IMG/VR virus record: IMGVR_UViG_3300027863_000019
Span: 64,001 to 128,000 of that record
Length of the DNA: 64,000 nt
Direction: 5' to 3' (one strand)
From: a virus
The notes beneath the pieces are model-generated. The model did not search any database, was not told where the DNA came from, and saw only the letters and a program-made list of their open reading frames with translations. The position numbers were made by a program, and so were the translations under genes. This document shows, in pieces, positions 4,259-51,000 of the stretch. The stretch's first letter is position 1. Each line of letters starts with the position of its first letter.

Positions 4259-4797
4259 ACTTCAAGACTGTTCAACCTGAAGCGGTTGGATTAGATCCCA
4301 CAGAATGTTTTCGTTCATCACCTTCCGGCGATGAATTTCTTAGACATTTTATCCAGTCTCTAAATATCACTGATCAAGATTCGATCTTAGATATTGGATG
4401 TGGAAAAGGAAGTGCGATGTGTATTATGCGTGAATTTCCTTTTGCACGAATAATGGGAGTAGAGATTTCCGAACAACTTGCTGAGATCGCAAAACATAAT
4501 TTCGAGACTTTACATTCCAAAAGATGTATCGTCCACGTTGGTAATGCAGCGAGGTTTTCATTGTATAACTTATTTAATTACTACTATCTATACAATCCAT
4601 TTCCATGTCATGTAATGACACAAGTTATAACAAAGATTAATCAGACTACCGCAATGTCAAGTCGTGAACGTTTCATCATCTATAATAATCCGGTGTGCCA
4701 TGATGAAATCATAAAAGGAGGTTGGTTTAAAATTAAGGAAGTTCCAACTAAATGGAGCTTGCGAATTTTTATTTATTCCAACAGGAGCCCGAAATGA
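4177..4797 (+). CDS. class I SAM-dependent methyltransferase (start uncertain)
   Basis: ILDIGCGKG motif I, GVEIS, YLYNPF. Confidence 0.8.
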   Translation: MEIWKMVSLGDSGKNLRSYCREDDPELDFKTVQPEAVGLDPTECFRSSPSGDEFLRHFIQSLNITDQDSILDIGCGKGSAMCIMREFPFARIMGVEISEQLAEIAKHNFETLHSKRCIVHVGNAARFSLYNLFNYYYLYNPFPCHVMTQVITKINQTTAMSSRERFIIYNNPVCHDEIIKGGWFKIKEVPTKWSLRIFIYSNRSPK

Positions 4798-5567
4798 TTG
4801 TTTCAACGGATGAAGCACTTGAACTAATGAAGGAGAAGGATCTACAACCGGTGAGTGACATTTGGCACTACTCGTTTAATATCGAGCAGTACTATGAGTA
4901 CTTCGACTTCTTACAAGATGATCATGCTTCATTTTTAATTGCGCCAAAGAAGTTACACCAGTGGGCGCCATTACCCATTTTTACTAATAAGCCGGATGAT
5001 GAAAATTTAACTCGAGCTTGGAAAGGAACGAATCGATTTTGGTTTTGCAGGCTCACAACATTTGACGATTTTTTAAATCGTCGCAGTACTATGAGTCGAA
5101 TGCCGCGAAAGCATTTTCCCACTTTGCAAACTTTCCCAAAGAAGGATGCTTACTTGCAAGGCAAGTTATCAATTGAATTTCTTGACATCCCGACTTTTCA
5201 AGAAATTTATGACAATTTAAAAAGGGAAGAACACATCAGTGGTAAAGAGGTTTTGGATTCTCTTTTTCGATCAAACATTGGTACTCCTCATGACTGGTTC
5301 AAGATGATGACATTGGAAGTCAAGAAAAGTATCGTGGGGGTGGGTCTTCTAGTCGATGACGGTCGTAGTCAATCTTTAATCAACTTAGCTACCATAATTG
5401 ATTTAAATCGGTATGGCTTATATATGTTAACCTTGTGGATTAAAGAATGCTGCGCGGTACGATATAAATCCGTTGATGCAGGAATCAGTGGCACATACGG
5501 AATCTATAAAGATCAAATCTTTATAGATTCCGTATTCGAAAGATTGCCGTACAAAATAAACCTTTGA
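4752..5567 (+). CDS. hypothetical protein, possible GNAT-like C-terminal domain (start perhaps 4794)
   Basis: IVGVGLLV...YGLYMLTLWIKEC...VDAG...YK pattern reminiscent of GNAT/FemAB folds; weak. Confidence 0.4.
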   Translation: MELANFYLFQQEPEMIVSTDEALELMKEKDLQPVSDIWHYSFNIEQYYEYFDFLQDDHASFLIAPKKLHQWAPLPIFTNKPDDENLTRAWKGTNRFWFCRLTTFDDFLNRRSTMSRMPRKHFPTLQTFPKKDAYLQGKLSIEFLDIPTFQEIYDNLKREEHISGKEVLDSLFRSNIGTPHDWFKMMTLEVKKSIVGVGLLVDDGRSQSLINLATIIDLNRYGLYMLTLWIKECCAVRYKSVDAGISGTYGIYKDQIFIDSVFERLPYKINL

Positions 5568-9646: not shown

Positions 9647-9907
9647 AACCGTTAATTTACTTGGCAGATCCTCATACGATTCCGGATCCCGTAGAGAATA
9701 CTCGTCGTGTTATTCAGAAGGTTGAAGAACTAACAAAGCTCGGCTTCGCGGATGGAGTATTTAAGACGTTGTGATTTAATGTATCGAATGAAAGGAATGA
9801 GTCCAGGATCAGATAAAGAAGAGAAGCTGGCAATTGAATTAAACATTCCTATAATTTATGAGAGTGAGGAATATAAATGGATACAACAGCAAAACAAGAT
9901 CTCGTAA
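9643..9907 (+). pseudogene. internally deleted/frameshifted DUF4406/DUF1937-like gene
   Basis: One frame gives MKPLIYLADPHTIPDPVENTRRV...LGFA, a shifted frame gives MEYLRRCDLMYRMKGMSPGSDKEEKLAIELNIPIIYE; the middle of the family consensus is missing. Confidence 0.55.
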
Positions 9908-10914
9908 GGAATATGTTAATCGCGATTGGTGAAGATCCAACTCGTGAAGGATTGTTAGATACTCCGAAGCGAGTCGTAAAAGCCTGGAATGAAATGTTTG
10001 CCGGATATAGAATGAAGCCGGAAGACATCGCTACCACATTTGATGCAGATGGGTACAATGAGTTAGTTCTTTTAAAAGGAATTGAATTCTACTCTACGTG
10101 CGTCGCAGGCTTTACAATGGTTGAAACTCCGAAAGGAAGGATGCCCTTATTTGCTTTGCGCTCAGGCGATTGGATTTATTCATTTAATGAACAACTCAAA
10201 ACGTTTGAAGTTGAACGGTGCTTAAATCCTAGAGTGACTCAGAAGGATGTCGAAGTTTTAAGGGTTATTTCCGAAAAAGATACTTTATTGTGTACTCCAG
10301 ATCATAAGTTTTTAACTTATGATGGTTGGGTTGAAGCTAAAGATTTGCGTCCTGGAACTAGAATTATCTCTGTATATGAAGATCCAATAAGAAGAGCCGC
10401 AATGTTTAAAAAAAGAAGTGAGTCGGTTGCTGTATCGTGGGAGGGAAGACGCGCCGATAAAAATCATAAAATTTTAGGTGTCGATTCTTTCCATGAAAAA
10501 ATTGATGTTTGGTGCCTTGATGCACCTAAAAATCATAACTTTGTTGCGAATGGGATGGTCGTACACAATTGTGAACATCACATGTTAAGCTTTTCGGGGA
10601 AGGCACATGTTGGATATATTCCAAATGGAAAGATTATCGGGATCTCAAAGCTTGCGCGCATCCTCGACATCTTTGCCAAACGTTTGCAGATCCAAGAACG
10701 AATTGGTCAACAAGTAACTCGAGCAATTAACGATTTGCTTGATCCAGTCGGTTCTGCTTGTATCATCGAAGCACAACATCTATGTATGAGATGTCGAGGA
10801 GTTGAGAAGCAAGAGTCAGTAATGATCACGAGTAGCTTAACTGGAGTCTTTCTCGAACACTCCGATAGAGGATTAGCAGCTCGCGCAGAACTGATGAGTT
10901 TAATAAGAGGTTAA
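9877..10914 (+). CDS. folE: GTP cyclohydrolase I containing a mini-intein
   Basis: GEDPTREGLLDTPKRV, FYST|intein|CEHH, GISKLAR, RLQIQER, AQHLCMRCRGV. Confidence 0.93.
   Translation: MDTTAKQDLVRNMLIAIGEDPTREGLLDTPKRVVKAWNEMFAGYRMKPEDIATTFDADGYNELVLLKGIEFYSTCVAGFTMVETPKGRMPLFALRSGDWIYSFNEQLKTFEVERCLNPRVTQKDVEVLRVISEKDTLLCTPDHKFLTYDGWVEAKDLRPGTRIISVYEDPIRRAAMFKKRSESVAVSWEGRRADKNHKILGVDSFHEKIDVWCLDAPKNHNFVANGMVVHNCEHHMLSFSGKAHVGYIPNGKIIGISKLARILDIFAKRLQIQERIGQQVTRAINDLLDPVGSACIIEAQHLCMRCRGVEKQESVMITSSLTGVFLEHSDRGLAARAELMSLIRG
10099..10569 (+). mobile_element. mini-intein (157 aa) in FolE
   Basis: Starts CVAGFT, block B CTPDHKFLT..GW, ends HNFVANGMVVHN before extein Cys; too short for an endonuclease. 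Confidence 0.9.
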
Positions 10915-11059
10915 AAGGAAAAAAGTGGGTGTCTCCGGTATATGATTATGTCAACTTTTTGATGCAGCTTTTGCTCACTATACTTTTTCCCTTTTAATAG
11001 CATCTAAAACCATTGATAATTTATTTATCAATTGCAGGAATACTGAAACAAATGTAAAA

Positions 11060-11215
11060 CACGGAAGTGAGGAAAGCGTTACTTCTATGACGAGGTCTGA
11101 GAAAATCGGACTTACTGCTCCACAAGTGGAGCTCCAGAAGCACAACCGAGAGATGCGCGTTAGCGTTAGGAACTCGTGATTAATGTATCTAAACGCTTTT
11201 CAATTTTTCTCCGTG
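11060..11215 (+). ncRNA. Y-RNA-like unit 1 (conserved closing helix plus ~105-nt multibranch domain)
   Basis: CACGGAAGTGAGGAAAGCGTTACTTC ... AACGCTTTTCAATTTTTCTCCGTG; ends pair; internal hairpins GTCTGA/TCGGAC and GCTCCAC/GTGGAGC. Confidence 0.7.
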
Positions 11216-11229
11216 CTTCCTTAAAAGGA

Positions 11230-11307
11230 TTTAAATTGTAAGTTTGGGGTTACTTCGTGCATAGGAAAAAACCTTGATCACAATTTCTCCCAATCTTACA
11301 ATTTAAA
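11230..11307 (+). ncRNA. Y-RNA-like unit 2 (5' strand of conserved helix partly missing)
   Basis: Outer stem TTTAAATTGTAAG-T-TTGGG / CCCAA-T-CTTACAATTTAAA; GGTTACTTCG and AACCTTGATCACAATTTCTCC retained, AGTGA segment absent. Confidence 0.55.
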
Positions 11308-11399
11308 ATAAAGGGTAGTGAGATTAGGCTTACTTCGCACATATGCTCATAACACGTCAGTGCTTAAACAAGCCTTTTCATTTTACTCCTACCTATTTT
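11306..11399 (+). ncRNA. Y-RNA-like unit 3
   Basis: GGTAGTGAGATTAGGCTTACTTCG-GCAC...GTGC-AAGCCTTTTCATTTTACTCC. Confidence 0.65.
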
Positions 11400-11420
11400 A
11401 CCTAAGAGAGGTATAAACAA

Positions 11421-11501
11421 ATGGCTGGACCTAAAGGCGGTAAAGGTGGCGGAGGTAAAGGTGGCGGAGGTAAAGGTGGCGGAGGTGGTAAAGCCTGTTA
11501 A
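11421..11501 (+). CDS. Gly/Lys-rich micropeptide (26 aa)
   Basis: MAGPKGGKGGGGKGGGGKGGGGGKAC*, upstream AAGAGAGGT RBS; 15-nt tandem repeat GGTAAAGGTGGCGGA x3. Confidence 0.55.
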   Translation: MAGPKGGKGGGGKGGGGKGGGGGKAC

Positions 11502-11517
11502 TAAGTTGTTATCCTTT

Positions 11518-11583
11518 TGTAGGGTCTGAATACCGGATGAATCCGGCTTTCTAAAAGCCCTCTGAAGCTGAGGGAGCATTCAC
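11518..11583 (+). mobile_element. IS200/IS605 TnpB right-end/omegaRNA fragment (diverged copy)
   Basis: Similar to about 42937-43002; ends AAGCCCTCTGAAGCTGAGGGAGCATTCAC. Confidence 0.8.
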
Positions 11584-11584
11584 T

Positions 11585-11669
11585 AGTGTGAGGTAGTGAC
11601 GTTTAGGGTTACTTCGGTAAAGCAACTGTTCGAAAAAACAAAACCCTTTACACTTTTCTCCTCAATACT
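11585..11669 (+). ncRNA. Y-RNA-like unit 4
   Basis: AGTGTGAGGTAGTGACGTTTAGGGTTACTTCG ... AAACCCTTTACACTTTTCTCCTCAATACT. Confidence 0.65.
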
Positions 11670-11683
11670 TCGCAGGATTTGAA

Positions 11684-12031
11684 ATGGGTAACCTTAGTCA
11701 TTGCTGTCCGTTTTGTGGAACTCCAGTTACGGTAGTTGGGCCTTGTGAGAAGTGTATGCCTAAATCACCCGAGCAGATTTTGCAAGGAGCTATAAGAGAA
11801 GATCCTATATTACAACAGAGTATCGTGGCAACAGAAGGTGATGAACTAAAGGATATTATTTTTAACTACGTCAACGCCCAGCCTGAGAAGCGGCTTCACC
11901 TTGATACAATCATTGCACGAATTAAAGGTGCTATGCCGAACGAGCACACAGGAAGTGTAAAACGCGCACTAAGATTTTTGCTTGATGAAGGGCGCGTAAA
12001 GCAAATTCAAGAAACTATAGTAATCAATTAG
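11684..12031 (+). CDS. hypothetical protein, N-terminal Zn-binding motif and possible winged-helix C-terminus
   Basis: CPFC...CEKC; C-terminal VKRALRFLLDEGRV; AGGA RBS. Confidence 0.55.
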   Translation: MGNLSHCCPFCGTPVTVVGPCEKCMPKSPEQILQGAIREDPILQQSIVATEGDELKDIIFNYVNAQPEKRLHLDTIIARIKGAMPNEHTGSVKRALRFLLDEGRVKQIQETIVIN

Positions 12032-12164
12032 GAAGTGAGGAAACGGCTACTTCGACTAGGAACCGCCATTGTAGGTTCGAGTCCTACTCTCCCGATCATG
12101 GCGGGAGATGGTGAAATTGGTAATCACAGCGGAATAGAAAAACCGTTTTCATTTTTCTCCTAAT
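12027..12164 (+). ncRNA. YrlA-like Y RNA (unit 5) with circularly permuted tRNA-like domain
   Basis: Closing helix ATTAGGAAGTGAGGAAACGGCTACTTC / AACCGTTTTCATTTTTCTCCTAAT enclosing CCGC, T-arm GTAGG-TTCGAGT-CCTAC, loop-closed acceptor stem TCTCCCG/CGGGAGA, D-arm GTG-AAATTGGTAAT-CAC, GCGG; about 1.1 kb from Ro60. Confidence 0.82.
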
Positions 12165-12264
12165 GTAGTTGTGAGAGGTCTTACGAAACGAAAGCAATTA
12201 TATTTATATTAAGTCTCGCCCTTTCTAGTATCATTTGGGTGGCAGTACGACTTCATTAACTTGA

Positions 12265-12341
12265 TGCGGATTGGAGAAGCGGTCTATCTCGTTTGGTTCA
12301 TAACCAAAAGATCACCGGTTCGAATCCGGTATCCGCTACCA
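12265..12341 (+). tRNA. tRNA-Met(CAU), initiator-like
   Basis: Acceptor GCGGAT/ATCCGC with 1:72 mismatch, D-stem GAGA/TCTC, anticodon arm TTTGG-TTCATAA-CCAAA, T-arm ACCGG-TTCGAAT-CCGGT, encoded ACCA. Confidence 0.9.
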
Positions 12342-12347
12342 AATTTT

Positions 12348-12421
12348 AAATTGGGAAGTGAGGGTTGAGTTACTTCGATCATTGGTGACCGTTAACACTC
12401 AACTCGGTTTTCTCCCAATTT
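12348..12421 (+). ncRNA. Y-RNA-like unit 6
   Basis: AAATTGGGAAGTGAGGGTTGAGTTACTTCG ... ACTCAACTCGGTTTTCTCCCAATTT. Confidence 0.7.
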
Positions 12422-12438
12422 TCTTTGAACGCTCTCCA

Positions 12439-12460
12439 GGTAGTGAGTTGAGATACTTCG
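12439..12460 (+). ncRNA. Y-RNA-like unit 7, 5' half only (3' half replaced by tnpB fragment)
   Basis: GGTAGTGAGTTGAGATACTTCG followed 8 nt later by a tnpB 3'-end copy. Confidence 0.5.
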
Positions 12461-12468
12461 ACACTATT

Positions 12469-12567
12469 AATGCGGCTAAAAATATCCTGGCCCTGGGAAT
12501 GCAGGGCTTGAGGCTGGATTCATCCAGCTCTCTAGAAGCCCTCTGCTTCAGCTGAGGGAGCATTCAC
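12469..12567 (+). mobile_element. tnpB 3' end plus right end (omegaRNA scaffold fragment)
   Basis: Near-identical to about 42908-43002 (encodes NAAKNILALGMQGLRLDSSSSLEAL), ends GGGAGCATTCAC. Confidence 0.92.
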
Positions 12568-12768
12568 CGTCGCTGAAAAGAAAGAAACGAAGCGCAAAGC
12601 GGCATTCGGAAATACCATGAGTAATTCCGCTCTCAAAGAACTTCTTTTGATACCACTGCTTCAGATCGGAATTCAAAAGCCAAAATTCGTAGAAGAGCAG
12701 CAAGATTTTTTGACTACTGTCGTTTACCTCTTAACAAATTTGATTTTGAAACGCTTTAAATCTAATTT

Positions 12769-13131
12769 TTGAGGAATATGAAAATGTTAGAAAGTACATT
12801 CTCCAACGAGCTTCAGGGTGAACAACCTAATTTCGCTCCCGCGGCACCCGTTCTTTCAGGCATCACTTTCGTGGGACGAGTGGCAAAGATTCAGGTTTCG
12901 TTGCCTATCGCTGATGCAGATGGTGGTGCTTTGACTGGATTGGCTGCGGTGAATGTGTTCTATAAGAACGCTACATTCGTTGGTTCCGATCCTGCAACTG
13001 AACGTGCGGCTGGAACTCCGATAGTTACAGTTGCAATTACTCCTGAGCAAGCTGGCCAAGTGGTCGAAGTGGATATACCAGATCTTGAGTTTGGAAAGGT
13101 TTACTTCTTCGCCGCAACATGTAACGATTAA
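12769..13131 (+). CDS. hypothetical beta-rich (Fn3/Ig-like) protein; start probably 12778 or 12784
   Basis: APAAPVL...DADGGALTGLAAVNVFY...LEFGKVYFFAATC resembles Fn3-like phage proteins. Confidence 0.55.
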   Translation: MRNMKMLESTFSNELQGEQPNFAPAAPVLSGITFVGRVAKIQVSLPIADADGGALTGLAAVNVFYKNATFVGSDPATERAAGTPIVTVAITPEQAGQVVEVDIPDLEFGKVYFFAATCND

Positions 13132-13197
13132 TCCTGCTTAAAGCAAGGCTCCAATGGAAAGCCCTTTTTCAAATCAAAAGCAGGCAATGATCGTTCT

Positions 13198-13268
13198 TAT
13201 GCCTTGGCCTTGGTGTGTGATCTACGCCTGGATCATCAGATGGTGGCACAAGCTGAGGGAGCATTCAC
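13198..13268 (+). mobile_element. degenerate TnpB right-end fragment directly upstream of Ro60 RBS
   Basis: TATGCCTTGGCCTTGG..., GCCTGGATCATCAG, AAGCTGAGGGAGCATTCAC. Confidence 0.65.
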
Positions 13269-13289
13269 ATTCTTCCTGGAGGTGCTGAA

Positions 13290-14753
13290 ATGGCAAAATT
13301 CAACAGGAAAGTGTTATCACCAACATTAACAACTAACCTTGCAGGTGGTGAAGCTTATCAAGTGTCACCACAGTTGCAGTTCGTAACGACCCTGCTAACT
13401 TCATTCGCCGAAGACCAGTATTACCGGAAGGCAAGTGGAGCAGTCCGGACTGTTCGGTCTCTGATCGATCAGTTCCCGGATAAGTTGTTCGCGGCTAAGG
13501 CTGCGATCTTTGCTCGCAATGAGTTTGGAGTGAGATCCATTACTCACGTCGTTGCGGGTGAGATTGCCAATCGAGTTAAGGGAATCGGCTGGACCAAGCG
13601 GTTCTTCAATGCCGTTGTAAGGCGTCCGGATGACATCCTGGAAATTCTAGCTTATTACCTTGCAACTTATGGCAAGCCACTGCCAAACTCCTTGAAGAAA
13701 GGGTTGGCGGCTTCTTTCGACAAGTTCGACAAGTACCAGCTGGCAAAGTATCGCGGCGAGTCTCATAGCGTATCCCTCGTGGATGCGGTGAACTTAGTGC
13801 ACCCAAAACCGGTTGCCAAGAACGCGGAAGCGTTACGACAGCTGGTTAAGGATGCCCTGAAGTCCACTGAGACTTGGGAAGCGAAGTTGACCACTGCTGG
13901 ACAAGCGGCTCAAACCGAAGCGGAAAAGGAAGAGTTGAAGTCCCAAGCTTGGACTGAGTTGATTCGTGAGAAAAAGCTCGGGTACTTCGCGTTGCTCCGT
14001 AACCTACGGAACATCGCGCAGCAAGCTCCAGAGATTCTGGAAGATGCGCTGTCAATGCTGGTTGATCCGCAGCTCATCGAAAAGTCTTTGGTTCTTCCGT
14101 TCCGGTTTGGTACCGCATACAAGGAAATGGCTTTGGCTCGGAAGTCAGCCAGCACCAAAGCTGAAGTTTCCTTGTATGATAAAGTAGCGGGGGCTCTTGC
14201 AACGGCTGCTAGCATTTCTTTGAACAATGTGCCTAAGCTGCCTGGCAAAACCCTTGTGGCCTTAGATGTGTCGGGATCTATGGAAGGCAAACCTTTCGAT
14301 ATCGGATCCATGTTCGCTGTAGCTTTGGTAGGTGCGATGAAGGCGGATCTTATTATTTTCTCTAACTCCGCCAAGTACCTCAAACTGACCAAGACTGGAG
14401 ATATCTTCGAGAACATCGATTACATCTACAAGCATTCCGACTTTGGCGGAACTGACTTTCACTCAGTCTTCAGAACCGCCAAACATGCGTACGATAGAAT
14501 CATCATCCTGTCGGATATGCAGGCTTGGGTCGGGTATTATACACCAAAGGAAAGCGTGAAGGCCTTCAAGAAAGCCACTGGCGCCGATCCGCTAATCTAC
14601 TCCTTTGACCTGCAGGGTTATGGGACTCTGCAATTTCCAGAGTCAAAGGTATTCGCGCTGGCTGGATGGAGCGATAAGGTGTTTGACATCATGAAGATTT
14701 TAGAAACTGATCGTCAAGCCCTCATCAACACCATCAATGCTGTAACCTTCTAG
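13290..14753 (+). CDS. Ro60/Rsr TROVE-domain RNA-binding protein with vWA domain
   Basis: TTNLAGGEAY, AIFARNEFGVRS, KFDKYQLAKYR, ETWEAKL, GYFALLRNLRNI, LPFRF, MIDAS DVSGSM, GGTD, IIILSDMQ; GGAGG RBS. Confidence 0.93.
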   Translation: MAKFNRKVLSPTLTTNLAGGEAYQVSPQLQFVTTLLTSFAEDQYYRKASGAVRTVRSLIDQFPDKLFAAKAAIFARNEFGVRSITHVVAGEIANRVKGIGWTKRFFNAVVRRPDDILEILAYYLATYGKPLPNSLKKGLAASFDKFDKYQLAKYRGESHSVSLVDAVNLVHPKPVAKNAEALRQLVKDALKSTETWEAKLTTAGQAAQTEAEKEELKSQAWTELIREKKLGYFALLRNLRNIAQQAPEILEDALSMLVDPQLIEKSLVLPFRFGTAYKEMALARKSASTKAEVSLYDKVAGALATAASISLNNVPKLPGKTLVALDVSGSMEGKPFDIGSMFAVALVGAMKADLIIFSNSAKYLKLTKTGDIFENIDYIYKHSDFGGTDFHSVFRTAKHAYDRIIILSDMQAWVGYYTPKESVKAFKKATGADPLIYSFDLQGYGTLQFPESKVFALAGWSDKVFDIMKILETDRQALINTINAVTF

Positions 14754-16289: not shown

Positions 16290-16367
16290 GTTTCATGTTT
16301 TAATGGTAATGCCACGAAAGGAATGTTTGGAACGTGTCCTCATAAAATTGAAAAGGGAGTGATTGTC

Positions 16368-17048
16368 ATGGCTGGAGAGATGTCTTGTATTGTCCTTTTA
16401 AGTGGTGGAATGGATAGTGCTACCTTACTCGCTAAAGCAATTAACGAGTTTGATAAAGTTAGCGCTCTCACTTTAATTTATGGTCAGAAGCATCGTCATG
16501 AATTAAAATGTGCAATGACTTTAACTAAGCACTTTAAAGTTCCCCACAAGGTCTTGGACGTATCGGTTATCAATTCGATTCTTCAAGGTTCGGCGTTAAC
16601 TGATTCTAGAGTGTCTGTTCCAAAAGGGCACTACGAAGATGAATCAATGAAGATGACCGTAGTGCCCGCACGAAATACAATCCTTCTAAGCCTCGCGCTT
16701 GGTTGGTGTATCAGCTGTGGATTTAATACGGTTGCGTATGCTGCACATTCTGGAGATCATGCAATCTATCCCGATTGTCGTCCAGACTATATCGCCGCGA
16801 TGCAAGACGTATTTAATAAAGCGCATTACTGGCCAATTAATCTATATGTACCTTTTATGCACATGGATAAAGGTTCAATCCTTGAAGTTGGATTTAAGTT
16901 GGGTGTTCCGTATGAACATACGTGGACTTGTTATGATCCACAGGGTGAAGAGCCCTTAGCATGTGGAACTTGTGGTAGTTGTACTGAAAGGCTTGAGGGA
17001 TTCGCAAAGAATAAAGTGAAGGATCCCGTTCAATACGTGAAAAGGTAA
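16368..17048 (+). CDS. queC: 7-cyano-7-deazaguanine synthase
   Basis: VLLSGGMDS, YGQKH..E, VVPARN, YPDCRP, TWTCY, CGTCGSC.ER; GGGAG RBS before ATG 16368. Confidence 0.95.
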   Translation: MAGEMSCIVLLSGGMDSATLLAKAINEFDKVSALTLIYGQKHRHELKCAMTLTKHFKVPHKVLDVSVINSILQGSALTDSRVSVPKGHYEDESMKMTVVPARNTILLSLALGWCISCGFNTVAYAAHSGDHAIYPDCRPDYIAAMQDVFNKAHYWPINLYVPFMHMDKGSILEVGFKLGVPYEHTWTCYDPQGEEPLACGTCGSCTERLEGFAKNKVKDPVQYVKR

Positions 17049-17531: not shown

Positions 17532-17596
17532 TGCATGGCTTGAGGCTGGATTCATCCAGCTCTCTAGAAGCCCTCTGAAGCCGTGGGAACATTCAC
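17532..17596 (+). mobile_element. TnpB right-end/omegaRNA fragment
   Basis: GGCTTGAGGCTGGATTCATCCAGCTCTCTAGAAGCCCTCTGAAGCCGTGGGAACATTCAC matches about 42942-43002. Confidence 0.9.
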
Positions 17597-19728: not shown

Positions 19729-19744
19729 CAGAGGGAGCATTCAC
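19729..19744 (+). mobile_element. minimal TnpB right-end remnant upstream of TerS
   Basis: CAGAGGGAGCATTCAC, 14-nt identity to the other right-end copies. Confidence 0.55.
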
Positions 19745-41750: not shown

Positions 41751-43002
41751 TATTGTGACGAGCAAGAGTGTTATATTCATACTCTTGTTTACGCCCATTG
41801 TCAGAATCCCTTCACTTATATCTCGAAGGGATTCTTGATTTTAAGTTTAGGTTAACCAAATGCTTAAAACATTCAAATACCGGATTTTCCCTACCAAAAA
41901 ACAGACTGCCTCTCTTGAGACCGTTCTGGAGGAATGTCGGTATCTTTACAACCGCTTGCTGGAGCAGCGCAAATACGCTTGGGATATTCAGGGAGTTTCA
42001 TTGGGATATTACCAGCAAGCCCGTATGCTACCTGGTATCAAAACAGCCCGGAATCTCCATCTGGCTTACTCTCAGGTCTTGCAAAACGTGGCAGTGCGGG
42101 TTGACCTAGCCTTCAAGGCTTTCTTCCGTCGTGTCAAAGCTGGAGAGAAACCCGGCTTTCCCCGGTTCAAGGGCAAAGGCTGGTACGATTCCATCACCTT
42201 CCCGCAGGTGCCCTTCGGTTGCTGCATCAAAGACAATAGGCTGTCGGTATCCAAGGTCGGCCACATCAAGATCGTCATGCACCGGGAGATGTACGGTAAG
42301 CCAAAGACGGCCACCATTAAGCGTTCTTCCACTGGTAAATGGTATGTGACCTTTGCTTGCGAAATTGAAGCTCAGCGCCTCCTAACTACCGATTCCTCTG
42401 CAGGAATTGACGTGGGTCTGCACACCTTTGCTATGCTTTCCAATGGCATGGCCATTGAAAATCCTCGGTTCTTCCGGGAAGAAGAAAAGGCCCTGGCTAA
42501 GGCCCAACGAAAACTGAGCAAAGCAGCTAAGGGAACGCCAGAGAGAGCTAAACAGCGCAAGGTCGTGGCTCGGGTGCATGAACGGTTAACTTGCCGCCGG
42601 AATAACTTTGCTCATCAGGAATCTCGTAAGATCGTCAATAACTACGGAACCATTTGCGTTGAAGATTTGACCGTCAACCGTATGGTTCATAACCATTGTC
42701 TCGCTAAAAGCATTGCGGACGCAGCTTGGTCCGGATTCTTCTCCATGCTCTCCTATAAGGCTGAAAGCGCCGGTAGGAAGCTGGTCAAAGTCAACCCGGC
42801 CTACACGACGCAGGACTGCCATAGGTGCGGATACCGACAAAAACTCAATCTTGCCGACCGTATCTACGCCTGTCCATGTTGTGGCTTGCATATTGACCGT
42901 GACCTCAATGCGGCTAAAAATATCCTGGCCCTGGGAATGCAGGGCTTGAGGCTGGATTCATCCGGTTCTCTAGAAGCCCTTTAAAGCCGTGGGAGCATTC
43001 AC
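41751..43002 (+). mobile_element. IS200/IS605-family tnpB-only (IS1341-type) element
   Basis: Left hairpin AGAATCCCTTC...GAAGGGATTCT at about 41803-41835, tnpB, right end ending TCAC at 43002; TTGAT at 41746-41750 is a candidate target motif; left boundary uncertain. Confidence 0.75.
41860..42984 (+). CDS. tnpB: RNA-guided endonuclease TnpB
   Basis: KYRIFP HTH, GFPRFK, RuvC D (GIDVG), E (VEDL), D (DRDLNAAKNI), Zn ribbon CHRCG/CPCCG. Confidence 0.95.
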   Translation: MLKTFKYRIFPTKKQTASLETVLEECRYLYNRLLEQRKYAWDIQGVSLGYYQQARMLPGIKTARNLHLAYSQVLQNVAVRVDLAFKAFFRRVKAGEKPGFPRFKGKGWYDSITFPQVPFGCCIKDNRLSVSKVGHIKIVMHREMYGKPKTATIKRSSTGKWYVTFACEIEAQRLLTTDSSAGIDVGLHTFAMLSNGMAIENPRFFREEEKALAKAQRKLSKAAKGTPERAKQRKVVARVHERLTCRRNNFAHQESRKIVNNYGTICVEDLTVNRMVHNHCLAKSIADAAWSGFFSMLSYKAESAGRKLVKVNPAYTTQDCHRCGYRQKLNLADRIYACPCCGLHIDRDLNAAKNILALGMQGLRLDSSGSLEAL

Positions 43003-45008: not shown

Positions 45009-48000
45009 ATGCCCGACGATAGCCCCTTTATTTTAAAGGTAGACAATTCGGCACTCGATCAAACTATCGAGAAAGCCAAGAAGACCGCTACCGAACTTAC
45101 CAACGCTCTTAGTAAAGCAAGTGATAGCGTAAAGGCCTCGCTCGCAAAGGCTTTTGCACCAAACCAGATTAATACCTGGATGTCTGGGATTCAAAGTAAG
45201 CTTGCTGAGCTACAAAGCAGTTCAAGCCTAAAGACTACCTTCACTGTTGATGTGTCACAAGTTGGTGCAGCTCAAACAGCAATGAAGGCATTAGAGTCTC
45301 AAGTTGCTGCAATTCAATATTCCGCAAAACAAGCCGCATCTGCATTAGAAGATAATATTGTTAGAGCCGTAAAAAGATCCGTACAGCAAATAAAACTCCT
45401 TGGCGAAGAGCAAAAGAAGGTTCAAGAGAGTCTTGCTAGCGCTACTTCCCCTGCGGCCGGAGTTACAATCTTTCCTGAATATAGGCGAGAGCTACAAGCT
45501 CAACGCCGAGCGATTGAAAAAGAAGTAGTTCAGACTAAAACTGTCTTACAACAATTACAAAACCTTTATAGAGAGTTCGTTAAGGTTCAAAATTCTGTTG
45601 ATAGTATCGCAGTTGAAGTAAGTAACTCACCAACAATGGCGAAAGCCATTCAAAAGGTTTCTAAGAATTTCGGTGAAGGCGTTCAAATGGCTTTGCCGAA
45701 AGGTGAAATTGCTAAGGACCTTAGAGACTACGTTTTATGGCACCAAGAGCAAACTAATAAAGCTCGAGATGATATTACCAAACATCTCGAGAATATGGAA
45801 CATGCAATTGGTGGTCGTTTAAGATCCCTTCCAGATCCTCTTACTTCTGATCTTCCACGCAAGCGTGCAGAAGAGTTAAAGAAGACTAAAAAAGAACTCG
45901 AGGCGCTTTATAATGAAGTTGCTGGTTTAAGAAACAAATCTGGAACTCCACACGATATTATTGGAGCTCTTGAAGGTCCCGCTCTTGGTAAGATGTATGA
46001 ACAATTCTTAAAAGGTCTTGTTGGAGTTGATGAACTTAACGCTCAGATTGTTTCAAGGATTGATGCCTACACTGCAAAGAGTCGTGAGATTACTTCAAAG
46101 TATCTCCACCTTATGGAAGCCTTTCCAGAGCACATTAAAGCTGGTGGAGAAAGAATCGTTCCTGGACTTTCTGGTCAAGCCCAAATTCCGGTTACTATTG
46201 TTGATCCAACCCCAGCTGAAATCAAGGGGTTACAAAATAGAATTGCCCTTCTCCAAGGTCTTTCAGTACAGTCTGAAAAGACGAAACAAGAGATTGCGAG
46301 TTTACAAGCTCAGTTAGCTTACTTTGAACGTGGAGGTAAAATTACTCAAGTTCCCGAACTTCAGGAAGGAGTGACTCCTAACGTTCGTCACGTTACTCAC
46401 GGTTATAGAGAACACGAATTTACTCCTGAAGCTTTAATGTCGGGCGAGTCAGTAGAGAAACTCGAAGAGTATCGTCAAGCTCTCGCCGGTCTCGATATAG
46501 CTTATAGATCTTCCGCTGACTCCGAAGAATTATTTGCGGATCGTATGAGAAACCTTGGAACCATTATTGGTTTCACTGATTCGAAAGATAAACTTCTTTT
46601 GGAGTACTTCCAACAGAACGAACAAATCGCGATGAGAGCGAGAAGGTTATTTGATGGCGTAAAACAAAGCGCTACCGATATGCCTTCCGTAGCAGAGAAG
46701 ATTAAAGAGATTTCAGGAGTCGCACGCGAGTCGTTAATGAAGCCTGGATTCGAAACGTTTGATCTCTCTGAAAAGTTGAAAGGAAGTATTGGAAACGCTA
46801 CTGGATATGTAAGAAGAGAGTTTGCCGATACAACTAAGAGTGCACACGAAAGTTTACTCAAGCTCAAAATGATCTCTGAAATTTTTGGTGAAGAGATTAC
46901 TGCTCCATTTAAGAGCGTAATAAATTATATTCGTGGTTACAAAGATGAAGCTGGTGTAAGTCAAGGCATTGGTCCGAAGTTTAATATGACTGCAGCTGGA
47001 CCTTTTGGAACTCTAGAACCAGTCTTTAAAAACTTCGAAGACAGAATGCAACGCATCAACGCTTTGATGATGCAGTTCGATACCCGCCCCGCAGAGACTG
47101 CTCCTAAACTCGAGAGTGAACTTCTTGGCATGTCAAACCTTCTTACTGGTGTTGCTGGTAAATATAAAGATATTCGTAATGAAGCTTCAGATATGGCTAG
47201 CGCGTTTCGAATTCAACCAATCATGTCTGAGATTCAAGCGATATTTAATAATCCGGCGCTTTCAAGTCAGAATTTAATTCAAGCCCAAGTAGCAGTTGCA
47301 AAGTTGAATGAAAAGTTTGATCAGATGGTTAAGTATGCTCCAGAGCTTGAACCTTTGCGTCAAAAGATTCGTCAGATCACTGACGAGTTCATTAGTACTA
47401 AAGCTATCACAGTTACTGAGCACCCTCAAGTTAAACAGTGGACAGCAGAAGCTGAAGCACTGAAAGCTCAAATGGAAAGACTCAAAGAGCAGAAACCTAA
47501 AGGAATTGCCGTTGCTCCCGGTCTAGCCGCTGAAGCAGATGAAGCTCAAAACCGCCGCGCAGTAGATTTATGGAAGCGTGAGATGGAATCCGTCGAGACG
47601 ATGTATAATGAACGTATGCAATGGATTGCACGTCAACGCGGAACGCCAATTGAAATCGATGAAGCTGGAGTTCGGGCGGCGTTTACAAAATTCGATACTC
47701 AATTACAGCCTTTTAAACGTCAATTAAATTTTAGTCAGATAATTGGTGATGCATTAACAAACCTTTCGCGTTTAGGTCGGGAAGCTGGAGACGTTGGAAG
47801 TAATGCTTCAATGATGCTTGATAAGATTTTCAAGCTTGTTGAGATGGTTAGCGTTGCAACTAAAACTGGTCTAGTCAAGAGTGAGAGTGAAGAGCTTCAA
47901 AAAATGATGGCAGAGATGAATCAATATACGGTTCATCTTAAATCTGAACACTTACCTGTCGTTGAAGCTTTAGGAAAAGAGTATCAAAGATTTGGTGATA

Positions 48001-51000
48001 AGGTTCAAACCGTTATTGGCGGATTCCTATCAAAAACTGAGCGTGGTGCTCTACCAAATATTATTCGCGAAAAATTTGCTCCACCTGAATTCGATGAAGC
48101 AATGCCTTTGGAAGAATGGTTAGGAAGCTTATCTGGAGGTCATCGCTTCTTCAAACCGATCGGAGGTGAACACGATAAATCTTTTATCGAGCAATTCGCT
48201 CCCCCAGGATCCGAACGTGGTAAACAGTTAACCGTAGCTGATATGTTTGGAACTGGACGTCTTGAGTTAATTGATCAAGCAACTGGAAAACAAACTCAAT
48301 TTGGAAAAGCTGTTGAGTTTGTTAAAAGTCAATTAAGGGAGCCAGGCAAGTTTGAATCTTTCTATCAACCCGCGATGCAGTATACTCAACGGTTAACCCA
48401 TTACATTCAAACTTTACGTGCTGAAATAATTGAAACCGCTAAATCTGATCCTAAAATGGCATCAATGGTTTTAGCGTTAGATACCGCACAATCAAAAGTT
48501 TTTCATACCACTGAATCGTTTAAGGCTCTAAAACGTTCAATCGAAGGTATTGGCCCAACTCAAGGTGCATTCTCACCGAATATGTCCCTCATTGGTAGGG
48601 AGTTAGCAGCTGTTACAGATGCGGCTACTAAATCGATTGACTCGCACGTTCAACAATTTCAAGAACGTTTAAAAGGTATTCTTCAAAAAGGCGGACCGCA
48701 AGAGATTTATGGTGCTATTAAAGAGGCCATGAAGCTTCCTGTTGGATCTTTTGATCAACCTATTTCTTCTCAGGGTATTGGTCAAATCCTCTTTGGTGGT
48801 GGTAATGAATCCCTAATAAGGGGTATGAGCTTTGAACGTCTTACTCAAATCAAAGCAGGTCTCGGTGAGTACTTCCAAGAAGTCGTCGAATCAGGTTGGG
48901 GTGCTGGAGCGATTAAACGTGCTCAGGCTATTATTAAGAGATTGTATACCGGTATTAATGAGGAGATGCACACTCAACGTGCTGAGCTTTTAAGTAAGGG
49001 CGAGCAACTTCCGACACTTTCTGATGAGACTATTCTGCCTTCAAGATGGGCTCAGGAGCCAACAGAGAAATTTTCAAAGCAAATGAAGAGTGCAACAAGA
49101 GCTGTTATGGAAGCTCTTGTTGCCGCAGATACTGAAACTTTCCCAGATACTGCACCATTCGTTCAAAAGATTTCGACTTGGTCTGTAGGTCAAATCGATA
49201 AGATTATCAAGACCTTAAAACAAAAGACCTCACAGAAAAGTCAAGAGTTTGCAAAAGCTCTTGTACCTGGAGAGTTAGCAGAATCACCTGAACAAGAGAA
49301 AATGCTTATCCAGATGATGAACTGGGAACGTGCGATTGCTTCAGCCGAGAAAGTTAAACAAGGCAAGCTGGATGAACTGCGTAGAAAAAGAACGGCTGCC
49401 GCGAAGGATGTGGGAGTTGAGGGTGAAGATGTTCTAACAAGTGAAGCTATCTCAATTGCTGAAGCCGCACCTGGTGCTGGACGAAAGATTGTTGAAAGCA
49501 TTGATAGCGTAACTGCGCAGAAAGTAGCCGCACTCAAACGCCAGATCGCTCAAATGAAGGGAGCTGGTGGAGCTGCTGCACTAGTTGATTATGAAAAGGG
49601 AATGGCTGAAGGAATTAAACAGCCGGGATTCCTTGAAACTGTTTTAGGACCTACTCAAATCGATCCAGTTAAACAAAGACTGTCGAATCTTATAAATCCA
49701 TTTGTTCAAATCAATGCTGAGCTTGAAAACCTTGGAATGGTATTTAGTCGTCAAGGTAGGCCAGTTGCAGCTTGGAGCGAGTTACTAAAAGCTGGTCAAA
49801 CCACTATCATGGACTTAATCAAGGAAGTTGCTAAAGTCAGTCCAGCAACTGATACCCTTGATGAGCATATCATGAAGTTTAATGCGACAGCGTCTGATGA
49901 AAAGAAAGTAATGACCTTCGCGTCATTATTAGAAATGATTCAGTCAATCAAGATCGCTCTTTCAGTCGCGATTCCAGAATACCAGAAATTGGTAGATACT
50001 GGTGACTTTACTGGCGCTGCTGCAAAGCGAGAAGATCTCGTATCTACTACGAGACTGTTAACAACCTTGATGCAGGAACTCGCGCGTTCTGAATCTGCGG
50101 TAGTTAGTAACGAATTTCTAATTGAAGATTTACGTCGTCGTGAAATTACTACCCTTCGTGAGTTAGGTCAAGCATATCGAATTCATAAACTTGAAGCTCA
50201 AGAAAGTATTGGACCTTTAGCTTCTGCAAGTAGAGCCGAACAAGCTAAAGCCGCGCTTGCTGGTCGAGACATCCTTAGACAATCAGTTATCTCTGCTCAA
50301 TGGAGAGGTGAGAAAACTACTGAGCCTGGTGGACCATTTGAAGGTATTGGTGAACCAGTTGGAACTATTGCTGATGTTTCAGAGAAGATGCTTGGTAGAT
50401 GGGATCAACTTGCGAATATGCGGAAAGGTATTGTTGATGTTATCAATACTTATCGTACAGCAAACAAAGAATTTGAGTATGGAGTTGCTGAGCCGAAGAA
50501 TTTAGATGACTTGATTGCGAAGCTTATGAAGTTCAATCGAATTCTAGAAGAAGGAAAAAATCTTCCTCCGACGTGGCAAAAGTCTTACGAGAATGCTTTT
50601 AAGGGAGTCCAACCATTTTTACAAGGCGTTTTAGAAGCAGCTAATAAAGCAAGCACAAGTGCGGGTAGAACTAGCTTTGCTGAGAAGTGGGCTGGAGATA
50701 TTCAGAAAGCTCGTGATGAAGCAGCGCATTTAATTATTGAAATGCAAGAGCTGACCAAGCTTATGCAGTCAACGCCACGCGGTGCTGAAACGCAACAAAA
50801 ACGTATTGCACAATCTGAAAGAGCTGGCGAACTTTTAGAGCGGGCCGGTGTAGTCCAGCTTGAAATGAGTAAGGATTCTCATACTCCCTCTGAAGAGATG
50901 AGGCTGGCTGCTGCTGCCACCCAAGAGTTAAAAGCAGCTTCAAGTGGTAACTTATCGCTTTGGGAACGTATTACTAATACAGTTAAAACAACTCGCAATA

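What the first reader, a model, noticed from the sequence alone, without database searches (positions are those of the whole stretch)
11060..12460. Array of about 7 modular Y-RNA-like units: shared closing helix, different cargo domains, upstream of phage Ro60
Seen: units at about 11060, 11230, 11306, 11585, 12027, 12348 and 12439 share 5' GG[A/T]AGTGA-N7-10-TACTTC (unit 2 lacks AGTGA) and, except truncated unit 7, a 3' pyrimidine tract ending CTCC. The N segment differs in each unit yet pairs with its own 3' strand (AAAGCGTT/AACGCTTT, AGGCTT/AAGCCT, AGGGTT/AACCCT, AAACGG/CCGTTT, GTTGAGT/ACTCAAC). The outer stems also differ but pair (CACGGA/TCCGTG, TGAGG/CCTCA, ATTAGGA/TCCTAAT, AAATTGGGA/TCCCAATTT). 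This is covariation, so structure is conserved rather than sequence. The enclosed domains are unrelated, about 15-105 nt. Established: Y RNAs have a Ro60-binding 5'/3' stem plus an effector module, and characterised bacterial loci carry only one or a few. Inference: the phage encodes a family of interchangeable Ro60 adaptor RNAs that tether different cargos or act as decoys. The conserved motif does not match the GNCGAAN(0-1)G stem motif described for YrlA, so it may be a new class.
Basis: partly seen in the sequence, partly recalled or inferred. Interest (0 to 1): 0.95.

Follow-up and report, generated by a model that had tools for sequence, protein, structure and literature searches.

The report
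Phage Ro60 gene with Y-RNA array
A tailed phage carries, just upstream of its gene for the RNA-binding ring protein Ro60, seven small structured RNA genes that share one conserved "handle" but hold different inserts (one mimics tRNA); they are an expanded, divergent form of the known Ro60/Y-RNA partnership.

Summary
Six AGTGA-N-TACTTC motifs lie on the + strand at 11066-12459 and nowhere else in the 64 kb (0.33 expected). The gene at 13290-14753 is a true Ro60 (TROVE plus vWA).

Each unit reads: outer stem, loop 1 ((U/A)AGYGA opposite RAUUUYCU), inner stem, UACUUCG opposite an A-rich strand, then cargo. A covariance model finds this handle beside Ro60 in more than 60 phage contigs. All 72 hits in 61 metagenome loci lie on the Ro60 strand. 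Compensatory changes occur at 13 of 14 pairs, and Ro60 is the only protein neighbour shared by all loci.

Most relatives carry 1-3 units. The two closest carry 10 and 8 units orthologous to the window's. Only five window units are intact. U2 has lost its loop strand, U4 its tRNA-like cargo, and U7 its 3' half to a TnpB/IS remnant.

U5 is a YrlA-type tRNA mimic, but it scores below Rfam's threshold, and GNCGAAN0-1G is absent from every unit.

Verdict: these are most likely Ro60-bound Y RNAs, a new variant of a known kind. Binding and function remain untested. Earlier notes of this scan record the same handle beside Ro60 on other phage DNA.

The parts
11060..11215 (+). U1. Complete handle: outer CACGGA/TCCGTG, AGTGA, inner GGAAAGCGTT/AACGCTTTTC, TACTTC, 3' loop strand AATTTTTC. 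Its 106-nt multibranch cargo is not tRNA-like.
   Evidence: Orthologues in L029 and L030 keep the cargo hairpins through compensatory changes.
11230..11306 (+). U2. Degenerate unit: the AGTGA loop strand is lost and a new 13-bp perfect outer stem has formed. It keeps TTACTTCG and ATTTCTCCCAA.
   Evidence: The model scores it at only 12.4 bits. The L029 and L030 orthologues have the full handle.
11314..11393 (+). U3. Complete handle (GGTAG/CTACC, AGTGA, TTAGGCTT/AAGCCTTT) with a hairpin cargo of about 33 nt.
   Evidence: 45.1 bits.
11421..11501 (+). Gly/Lys-rich 26-aa ORF lying inside the array. It is not part of a unit.
   Evidence: A 40-aa Gly/Lys ORF sits at the same place in L029 (3550-3672).
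11589..11664 (+). U4. Complete handle (TGAGG/CCTCA) with a cargo reduced to 26 nt. The orthologues carry a cargo of about 80 nt that contains a T-arm.
   Evidence: (62.5 bits).
11684..12031 (+). 115-aa ORF (Zn-ribbon-like N-terminus, winged-helix-like C-terminus) embedded in the array. Its end overlaps the start of U5.
   Evidence: The C-terminal half is 36% identical to the L029 ORF at 4288-4491. No Pfam hit.
12027..12164 (+). U5. Complete handle (ATTAGGA/TCCTAAT) with a tRNA-like cargo in YrlA order: T-arm, a stem closed by a loop, then a D-arm.
   Evidence: Rfam YrlA 25.5 bits, E 0.014, below the gathering score of 69. Model R1 34.1 bits, E 8e-6, and U5 was not in the seed. Arms covary among three orthologues.
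12265..12341 (+). tRNA-Met (CAT) inside the array, 6 nt before U6.
   Evidence: 60.4 bits. It is conserved in L029.
12348..12421 (+). U6. Complete handle (AAATTGGGA/TCCCAATTT; GGGTTGAGT/ACTCAACTC) with a 20-nt cargo.
   Evidence: 56.2 bits.
12436..12468 (+). U7. Only the 5' half remains (CCAGG-TAGTGA-GTTGAGA-TACTTCG).
   Evidence: 20.2 bits, inner stem broken. The L029 orthologue at 4979-5050 is complete. An IS remnant begins at 12469.
12469..12567 (+). Remnant of a TnpB (IS200/IS605-type) element: the end of the TnpB coding region plus the structured right end. It replaces the 3' half of U7.
   Evidence: 90% identical to 42907-43002, the 3' end of the intact transposase gene at 41860-42984.
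13290..14753 (+). Ro60 gene (487 aa, TROVE plus Ro60-vWA), the presumed protein partner of the units.
   Evidence: The best solved-structure match is Thermus phage phiLo Ro60, 9KOP/9L5Y, E 2e-19.

Best explanation
The units are genes for Y RNAs, the small noncoding partners of Ro60, in a divergent form. Inferred mechanism: the array is transcribed on the + strand together with tRNA-Met and the small ORFs. It is then cut into single RNAs, as happens with YrlA/YrlB in M. smegmatis. In each RNA the 5' and 3' ends pair to build a handle of about 55 nt: outer stem, asymmetric loop 1 ((U/A)AGYGA opposite RAUUUYCU), an inner stem of 6-10 bp, and loop 2 (UACUUCG opposite an A-rich strand). The phage Ro60 binds this handle. 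The cargo on top differs between units and is free to engage other factors. The tRNA-like cargo of U5 would engage tRNA-recognising enzymes, and other cargos might engage host exoribonucleases such as PNPase. The phage thereby redirects or dampens host RNA decay and surveillance during infection. Shown here: the structure, its covariation, its strand, its linkage to Ro60, and the orthology and turnover of units. Inferred only: transcription, processing, Ro60 binding and the roles of the cargos.
For: Motif clustering: 6 hits against 0.33 expected, one strand only. Model R1 hits only the array within the 64 kb.

Conservation and covariation: in 28 loci the handle sits upstream of Ro60. 89% of cells are paired, 13 of 14 pairs show double changes, 0 of 500 shuffles reach this, and slid controls give 36-60% paired. 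About 12% of paired cells are G-U (my count's per-pair table), which would be mismatches on the other strand, so the structure is RNA read from the + strand.

Linkage to Ro60: in 61 metagenome loci (517 kb, both strands) all 72 hits at E<=0.01 are on the Ro60 strand, and nearly all lie 0.1-2.6 kb upstream. Motif density is 0.69 per kb upstream against 0.049 per kb elsewhere. In the reverse test, a 17-base handle pattern found 37 IMG/VR stretches. Of these, 24 hold Ro60 in the same stretch, usually about 400 nt downstream, and one more (L118) is cut from the contig that holds L012's Ro60. Seven more have a TROVE gene elsewhere on the contig. Ro60 is the only protein family shared by all 20 diverse loci; the next best is in 10.

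Likeness to known Y RNAs: long-cargo units carry YrlA-type tRNA mimics (window U5; L005 at 38.3 and 34.8 bits). The layout matches published systems: two Y RNAs upstream of rsr cut from one precursor, one of them tRNA-like (PMC4201824), and phiLo Ro60 binding two upstream Yrl RNAs with a stem-bulge-stem plan (PMC12135203). The window's Ro60 is closest to phiLo Ro60 among solved structures.

Selection on cargos: the 10-unit (L029) and 8-unit (L030) arrays are orthologous to the window's, and their cargos are conserved through compensatory changes.
Against: There are no expression data and no binding data. Rfam YrlA stays below its gathering score, and metazoan Y_RNA gives no hit even at E<=10. 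GNCGAAN0-1G and CGAA are absent from all window units. Model R1 does not hit the region upstream of phiLo Ro60, where the only experimentally tested phage Yrl RNAs lie, nor the Vibrio phage SRILMA or CcrColossus loci. In seven contigs the units lie 0.6-20 kb from the TROVE gene. One strong unit (L117, 60.7 bits) sits in a 32.8-kb contig with no TROVE gene. No promoters or terminators above chance were found in the array. Two of the seven window units are degenerate.
Confidence: 0.8

Rival explanations
1. The handle is a processing or stability cassette. It would be a structured site for a host or phage RNase, or a protective clamp, that releases or stabilises assorted small RNAs and short mRNAs from one long transcript. 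Its neighbourhood with Ro60 would reflect shared regulation and not binding.
For: Units are interleaved with a tRNA and small ORFs on the same strand. No internal promoters or terminators exceed chance. Some contigs hold units 7-20 kb from TROVE, and one contig has a unit but no TROVE gene.
Against: Two loop sequences are conserved alongside Ro60 proteins only 28-50% identical to the window's, which points to a sequence-specific protein partner. Ro60 is the only constant neighbour. All 72 hits lie on the Ro60 strand, mostly within 0.5 kb upstream in distant relatives, where there are no tRNAs or ORFs to process. The tRNA-mimic cargos match the YrlA plan.
Confidence: 0.1
2. The units are cis-regulatory leaders, such as attenuators or translational operators, for the genes that follow them. 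Ro60 itself could be among those genes, with Ro60 binding its own leader as autoregulation.
For: U3 and U4 precede small ORFs. In L003, L030 and L031 a unit lies 104 nt before the Ro60 start. In distant relatives an intrinsic terminator lies between the last unit and Ro60.
Against: Several units follow one another with no ORF between them: U1-U2-U3, U6-U7, and L029 3955-4064-4143. Cargos are large, conserved and tRNA-like, which is typical of trans-acting Y RNAs. In seven contigs the units are not adjacent to TROVE at all.
Confidence: 0.05
3. The repeats act at the DNA level, as recombination or attC-like sites, operators, or miniature mobile elements.
For: The region is a hot spot for TnpB/IS remnants. 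The number of units differs between close relatives.
Against: The units are strictly on one strand. About 12% of paired cells are G-U wobbles, which would not pair on the complementary strand (my count's per-pair table). Stem sequences differ while pairing is kept. Orthologous units sit at syntenic positions in three phages, not scattered. The IS remnants are a separate, unrelated repeat.
Confidence: 0.02

Closest known systems
Bacterial and phage YrlA / YrlB Y RNAs with Rsr (Ro60): Salmonella, M. smegmatis, mycobacteriophages (Chen et al. 2014, PMC4201824; Rfam RF02553)
   Same: They are encoded within a few kb upstream of Ro60 on the same strand, with several RNAs per locus. The ends pair into a long stem broken by an asymmetric internal loop, roughly 5-6 nt opposite 7-8 nt. 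The design is modular. One member carries a tRNA-like domain (T-arm, closed acceptor-like stem, D-arm) and the others are short hairpins.
   Different: Loop 1 reads (U/A)AGYGA in place of GNCGAAN0-1G. There is a second invariant element, UACUUCG, and a conserved RAUUUYCU strand. Rfam YrlA scores stay below threshold (25-38 bits against 69). There are 7-10 units here, where the characterised bacteria are each reported with at least two. Units are interleaved with a tRNA and small ORFs.
Thermus phage phiLo Ro60 with Yrl1 and Yrl2 (NAR 2025, PMC12135203; PDB 9KOP, 9L5Y)
   Same: It is a phage Ro60 with Y-RNA-like genes directly upstream and a stem-bulge-stem plan. It is the closest solved relative of the window's Ro60 (E 2e-19). 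Binding to Ro60 and to host PNPase was shown there.
   Different: phiLo has two RNAs with a CGAA motif. Model R1 finds no hit in the 3 kb either side of the phiLo gene. By tblastn the two Ro60 proteins are only 24% identical.
Deinococcus radiodurans Yrn1/Yrn2 with Rsr and PNPase (the RYPER complex), and metazoan Y RNAs
   Same: The logic is the same: a Ro60-binding stem plus an effector module that tethers a partner. Several different Y RNAs exist per organism.
   Different: There is no detectable sequence or model similarity: Rfam Y_RNA gives no hit at E<=10. Those genes are not arranged in arrays of this size.

Membership tests
Y RNA (Ro60-associated noncoding RNA, general definition) | Encoded next to, or co-occurring with, a Ro60/TROVE gene, usually on the same strand | tested here: met
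   (72 of 72 hits on the Ro60 strand).
Y RNA (Ro60-associated noncoding RNA, general definition) | The 5' and 3' ends pair into a long stem interrupted by a conserved bulge or internal loop, with a variable module beyond it | tested here: met
   (13 of 14 pairs with compensatory changes).
Y RNA (Ro60-associated noncoding RNA, general definition) | Physically bound by Ro60 | not testable with these tools
   This needs RIP or EMSA.
Y RNA (Ro60-associated noncoding RNA, general definition) | Accumulates as a discrete small RNA of about 60-160 nt | not testable with these tools
   No transcriptome is available. The promoter and terminator scan was uninformative.
YrlA (Rfam RF02553) | Reaches the Rfam gathering score of 69 bits | tested here: not met
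   U5 scores 25.5 bits (E 0.014) and the other units give no hit. Relatives in L005 score 38.3 and 34.8 bits.
YrlA (Rfam RF02553) | tRNA-like domain: T-arm, acceptor-like stem closed by a loop, then D-arm | tested here: met
   Met by U5 only. U4 has lost it relative to its orthologues. U1, U2, U3 and U6 have no T-arm, and the remaining 5' half of U7 carries none.
YrlA (Rfam RF02553) | GNCGAAN0-1G motif near the 5' end | tested here: not met
   The only match in 11050-12500 lies inside the ORF, at 11935. No unit handle contains CGAA. Across the family the motif is UGA-N in 73%, CGA-N in 27% and CGAA in 3%.
YrlA (Rfam RF02553) | Within 4 kb of Ro60 on the same strand (search criterion of Chen et al. 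2014) | tested here: met
   The units lie 0.85-2.2 kb upstream on the + strand.
Metazoan Y_RNA (Rfam RF00019) | Match to the family covariance model | tested here: not met
   No hit at E<=10 in 10900-13300.
Ro60 / Rsr protein | TROVE domain followed by a vWA domain | tested here: met
   PF05731 E 9e-19. PF25045 E 5e-6, 26.9 bits, just under Pfam's 27.7-bit cut-off. Near full-length match to phiLo Ro60 structures.

The most novel reading that the evidence does not exclude
The expanded arrays of 7-10 units form a phage-encoded library of Ro60 adaptor RNAs. Each lineage-conserved cargo (several tRNA mimics, a multibranch domain, short A-rich hairpins) would point Ro60, and through it host exoribonucleases, at a different RNA or protein. 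Alternatively, each cargo would decoy a different host factor that targets tRNA or RNA. The handle with its two conserved loops would be a distinct Ro60-recognition mode shared by phages of bacteria and at least one haloarchaeal virus.
Probability: 0.25. Interest if true: 0.8.

Novelty: new variant of a known kind. Interest (0 to 1): 0.5.

Why it matters
Y RNAs are known as one to a few partners per Ro60, and their roles in bacteria and phages are only partly understood. Here there is a well-defined, covarying handle that Rfam does not detect. It lies beside Ro60 in many large phages, in a crAss-like phage and, weakly, in a haloarchaeal virus. One subclade has expanded it to 7-10 units with conserved, different cargos.

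This gives a natural test set. The same protein-binding handle is combined with different effector modules, and natural decay variants are available (a lost loop, a lost cargo, a lost 3' half). That makes the question of what the second module of a Y RNA does directly testable with one protein and a panel of RNAs. It also offers a covariance-model seed for annotating these RNAs in phage genomes, where they are currently unannotated or, possibly, called as tRNAs.

Tried and rejected
- Rfam at gathering thresholds over the whole window found only the tRNA. With permissive thresholds on 10900-13300 it found only a sub-threshold YrlA match plus chance hits such as L21 leader and mir-71.
- The closest deposited phage, LR745206.1, has no exact AGTGA-type motif, but it has the AGCGA variant and a model hit.
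- Blastn of the array against 50,697 phage records found nothing.
- No whole genome is held for the window.
- The promoter and terminator scan gave counts no higher than in shuffles.
I reject this. The ttcttcctgg(g)agg stretch is the conserved pre-ATG sequence in L003 and L029, where the last unit is complete on its own.
This loop is not conserved in the L029 and L030 orthologues.
It is possible in U1, U5 and U6, and it is the minimum-energy fold of U1. It cannot form in the AGCGA units that dominate the relatives.
- Model R1 gave no hit near phiLo Ro60, Vibrio phage SRILMA or CcrColossus, so I could not tie this handle directly to the experimentally tested Yrl RNAs.
- The review PMC10870794 is not held.
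- Two paper searches found no description of this handle or of arrays of this size.
Full report
**What is there**

The window is part of a tailed phage. It encodes terminase, portal, protease, major head and tail proteins. No whole genome is held for it. A 487-aa gene at 13290-14753 carries TROVE (E 9e-19) and Ro60-vWA domains, the latter just under Pfam's cut-off. Among solved structures it is closest to the Ro60 of Thermus phage phiLo (9KOP/9L5Y, E 2e-19).

Seven repeat units lie on the same strand between a GTP cyclohydrolase I gene (9877-10914) and this Ro60 gene. The motif AGTGA-N6-12-TACTTC occurs six times. All six are on the + strand within 11066-12459, against 0.33 expected by chance.

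**Anatomy of a unit**

Reading 5' to 3', each unit has these parts:
- an outer stem of 4-10 bp, with a different sequence in every unit
- the loop-1 5' strand, (U/A)AGYGA
- an inner stem of 6-10 bp, also different in every unit
- the invariant UACUUCG
- the cargo, 20-106 nt in the window
- an A-rich strand
- the inner stem 3' strand
- the loop-1 3' strand, RAUUUYCU
- the outer stem 3' strand

I built covariance model R1 from 15 short units, 12 of them from other phages. In the window it finds U4 (62.5 bits), U6 (56.2), U3 (45.1), U5 (34.1, not in the seed), U7 (20.2) and U2 (12.4). It finds nothing else on either strand of the 64 kb. U1 escapes the model because of its 106-nt cargo, but it has every handle element.

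**Comparative evidence**

The Ro60 protein retrieved 27 IMG/VR loci and 80 metagenome loci.

- In the relatives at about 50% identity, the same handle lies about 300-450 nt upstream of Ro60 on the same strand. It typically comes as one short unit (CCAG-UAGUGA...) followed by one long-cargo unit (UAGCGA...) and then a terminator.
- On the model-fitted alignment, 89% of cells pair and 13 of 14 pairs show compensatory double changes. None of 500 shuffles reaches this, and slid controls give 36-60% paired. The alignment was fitted to the model, so these counts lean towards the structure.
- About 12% of paired cells are G-U (my count's per-pair table), so the structure exists in RNA read from the + strand and not in DNA.
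- Across 61 metagenome loci (517 kb, both strands), all 72 hits at E<=0.01 are on the Ro60 strand.
- The 5' motif is 14 times denser in the 3.5 kb upstream of Ro60 than elsewhere in the loci.
- Ro60 is the only protein family shared by all 20 diverse loci. The next best family is present in 10.

**Reverse test**

A 17-base handle pattern found 37 stretches in IMG/VR.
- 24 hold Ro60 in the same stretch, mostly about 400 nt downstream. One more, L118, is cut from the contig that holds L012's Ro60.
- Seven more have a TROVE gene elsewhere on the contig, 0.6-20 kb away.
- Five have none. Two of these have no model hit and are probably chance matches (L124, L128). Two are weak hits on fragments (L126, L132). 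One (L117, 60.7 bits) is a real unit in a 32.8-kb contig without a TROVE gene.

The linkage is therefore strong but not absolute.

**The array is an expansion that is partly decaying here**

Most loci with at least 1 kb of upstream sequence have 1-3 units. The two closest relatives are L029 (Ro60 81% identical) and L030 (77%). They have ten and eight units, syntenic with the window's U1-U7, the tRNA-Met, the Gly/Lys micro-ORF and the winged-helix ORF.

Compared with these relatives, the window shows several losses:
- U2 has lost the AGUGA strand.
- U4 has lost a T-arm-containing cargo.
- Three units between U4 and U5 are missing, including a full tRNA mimic.
- The 3' half of U7 has been replaced by a TnpB/IS remnant.

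Five window units therefore have a complete handle. Orthologous cargos of U1 and U5 are conserved through compensatory changes. This argues that the cargos themselves are under selection.

**Relation to known Y RNAs**

U5's cargo aligns to Rfam YrlA with a T-arm, a closed acceptor-like stem and a D-arm, but only at 25.5 bits. Two long-cargo units in L005 reach 38.3 and 34.8 bits. All are below the gathering score of 69.

GNCGAAN0-1G and CGAA are absent from every window unit. Across the family loop 1 is UGA-N in 73%, CGA-N in 27% and CGAA in 3%.

The published systems share the ground plan. All three characterised bacteria have at least two Y RNAs. These lie upstream of rsr and are cut from one precursor in M. 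smegmatis. One is tRNA-like and one is a short hairpin (PMC4201824). phiLo Ro60 binds two upstream stem-bulge-stem RNAs and, with them, host PNPase (PMC12135203).

R1 does not hit the phiLo, Vibrio phage SRILMA or CcrColossus loci. It does hit upstream of the TROVE gene in a crAss-like phage (38.8 bits) and, weakly, in haloarchaeal virus HGTV-1 (17.7 bits, E 0.039).

**Mechanism**

The most likely mechanism (about 0.8) is this. The array is transcribed and processed into separate Y RNAs. The phage Ro60 binds their common handle, and the cargos engage other factors. Only the structure, strand, linkage and evolutionary behaviour are shown here. Transcription, processing, binding and cargo function are inferred from the characterised systems.

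The rivals are less likely, for the reasons given under each:
- a processing or stability cassette (0.1)
- cis-regulatory leaders (0.05)
- DNA-level sites (0.02)

**Novelty and context**

Phage Ro60 with a few Y RNAs is published. I found no paper describing this handle or arrays of 7-10 units, and Rfam 15 does not detect them.

Earlier notes of this scan describe the same handle (TAGCGA / TACTTCG / RATTTWCT) beside Ro60 in other phage genomes. They also describe arrays with a different handle beside TROVE-like DUF2828 genes. My tests were run independently of those notes and agree with them.

I class the finding as a new variant of a known kind, of moderate interest.

Noticed in passing
window 41860-43002; remnants at 11535-11583, 12469-12567, 13251-13268, 17532-17596, 19729-19744: There is an intact TnpB-type transposase gene (phrog_506, E 2e-113) with a structured right end that finishes in GGGAGCATTCAC. 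Five solo right-end remnants lie on the + strand in intergenic spots. Three are inside or next to the Y-RNA array, and one sits 22 nt before the Ro60 start. The copy at 11535-11583 has compensatory changes in its hairpins.
   Followed up: partly
window 11421-11501; L029 3550-3672: A Gly/Lys-rich micro-ORF (26 aa here, 40 aa in L029) with a ribosome-binding site is kept at the same place between U3 and U4 in both phages. It is built partly from a 15-nt tandem repeat.
   Followed up: partly
window 9877-10914 compared with L029 2218-2784: The GTP cyclohydrolase I gene carries an intein in the window (Pfam Intein_splicing at residues 120-231). The L029 orthologue is 188 aa and has no intein. QueC (16323-17048) lies nearby, which suggests a 7-deazaguanine pathway.
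   Followed up: no
L158 (crAss-like phage cr111_1, NC_055880.1) 1892-2017: A weak handle hit (16.9 bits) encloses the annotated tRNA-Gln (1917-1992). A stronger unit (38.8 bits) lies at 2261-2325, upstream of the TROVE gene. The annotated tRNA may be the cargo of a Y-like RNA.
   Followed up: no
L157 (Halogranum tailed virus 1, NC_021328.1) 2870-2956: A weak handle match (GCGA ... UACUUC ... AAUUUCA; 17.7 bits, E 0.039) ends 12 nt before the TROVE gene of a haloarchaeal virus.
   Followed up: no
L117 7616-7694 (IMGVR_UViG_3300045911_000135): A strong unit (60.7 bits) lies in a 32.8-kb contig with direct terminal repeats and no detectable TROVE gene. It is the only clear exception to the Ro60 linkage.
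   Followed up: partly
window 12617-13131 compared with L029 5071-5975: L029 has a Zn-ribbon ORF and a 232-aa ORF carrying an H-D-F-D-E motif (read by eye as HD-type; no family search run) between the array and Ro60. The window keeps only the first ~17 codons of the latter (12617-12669), followed by an unrelated 120-aa ORF.
   Followed up: partly
window 45009-59045: A single open reading frame of 4678 aa lies on the + strand.
   Followed up: no
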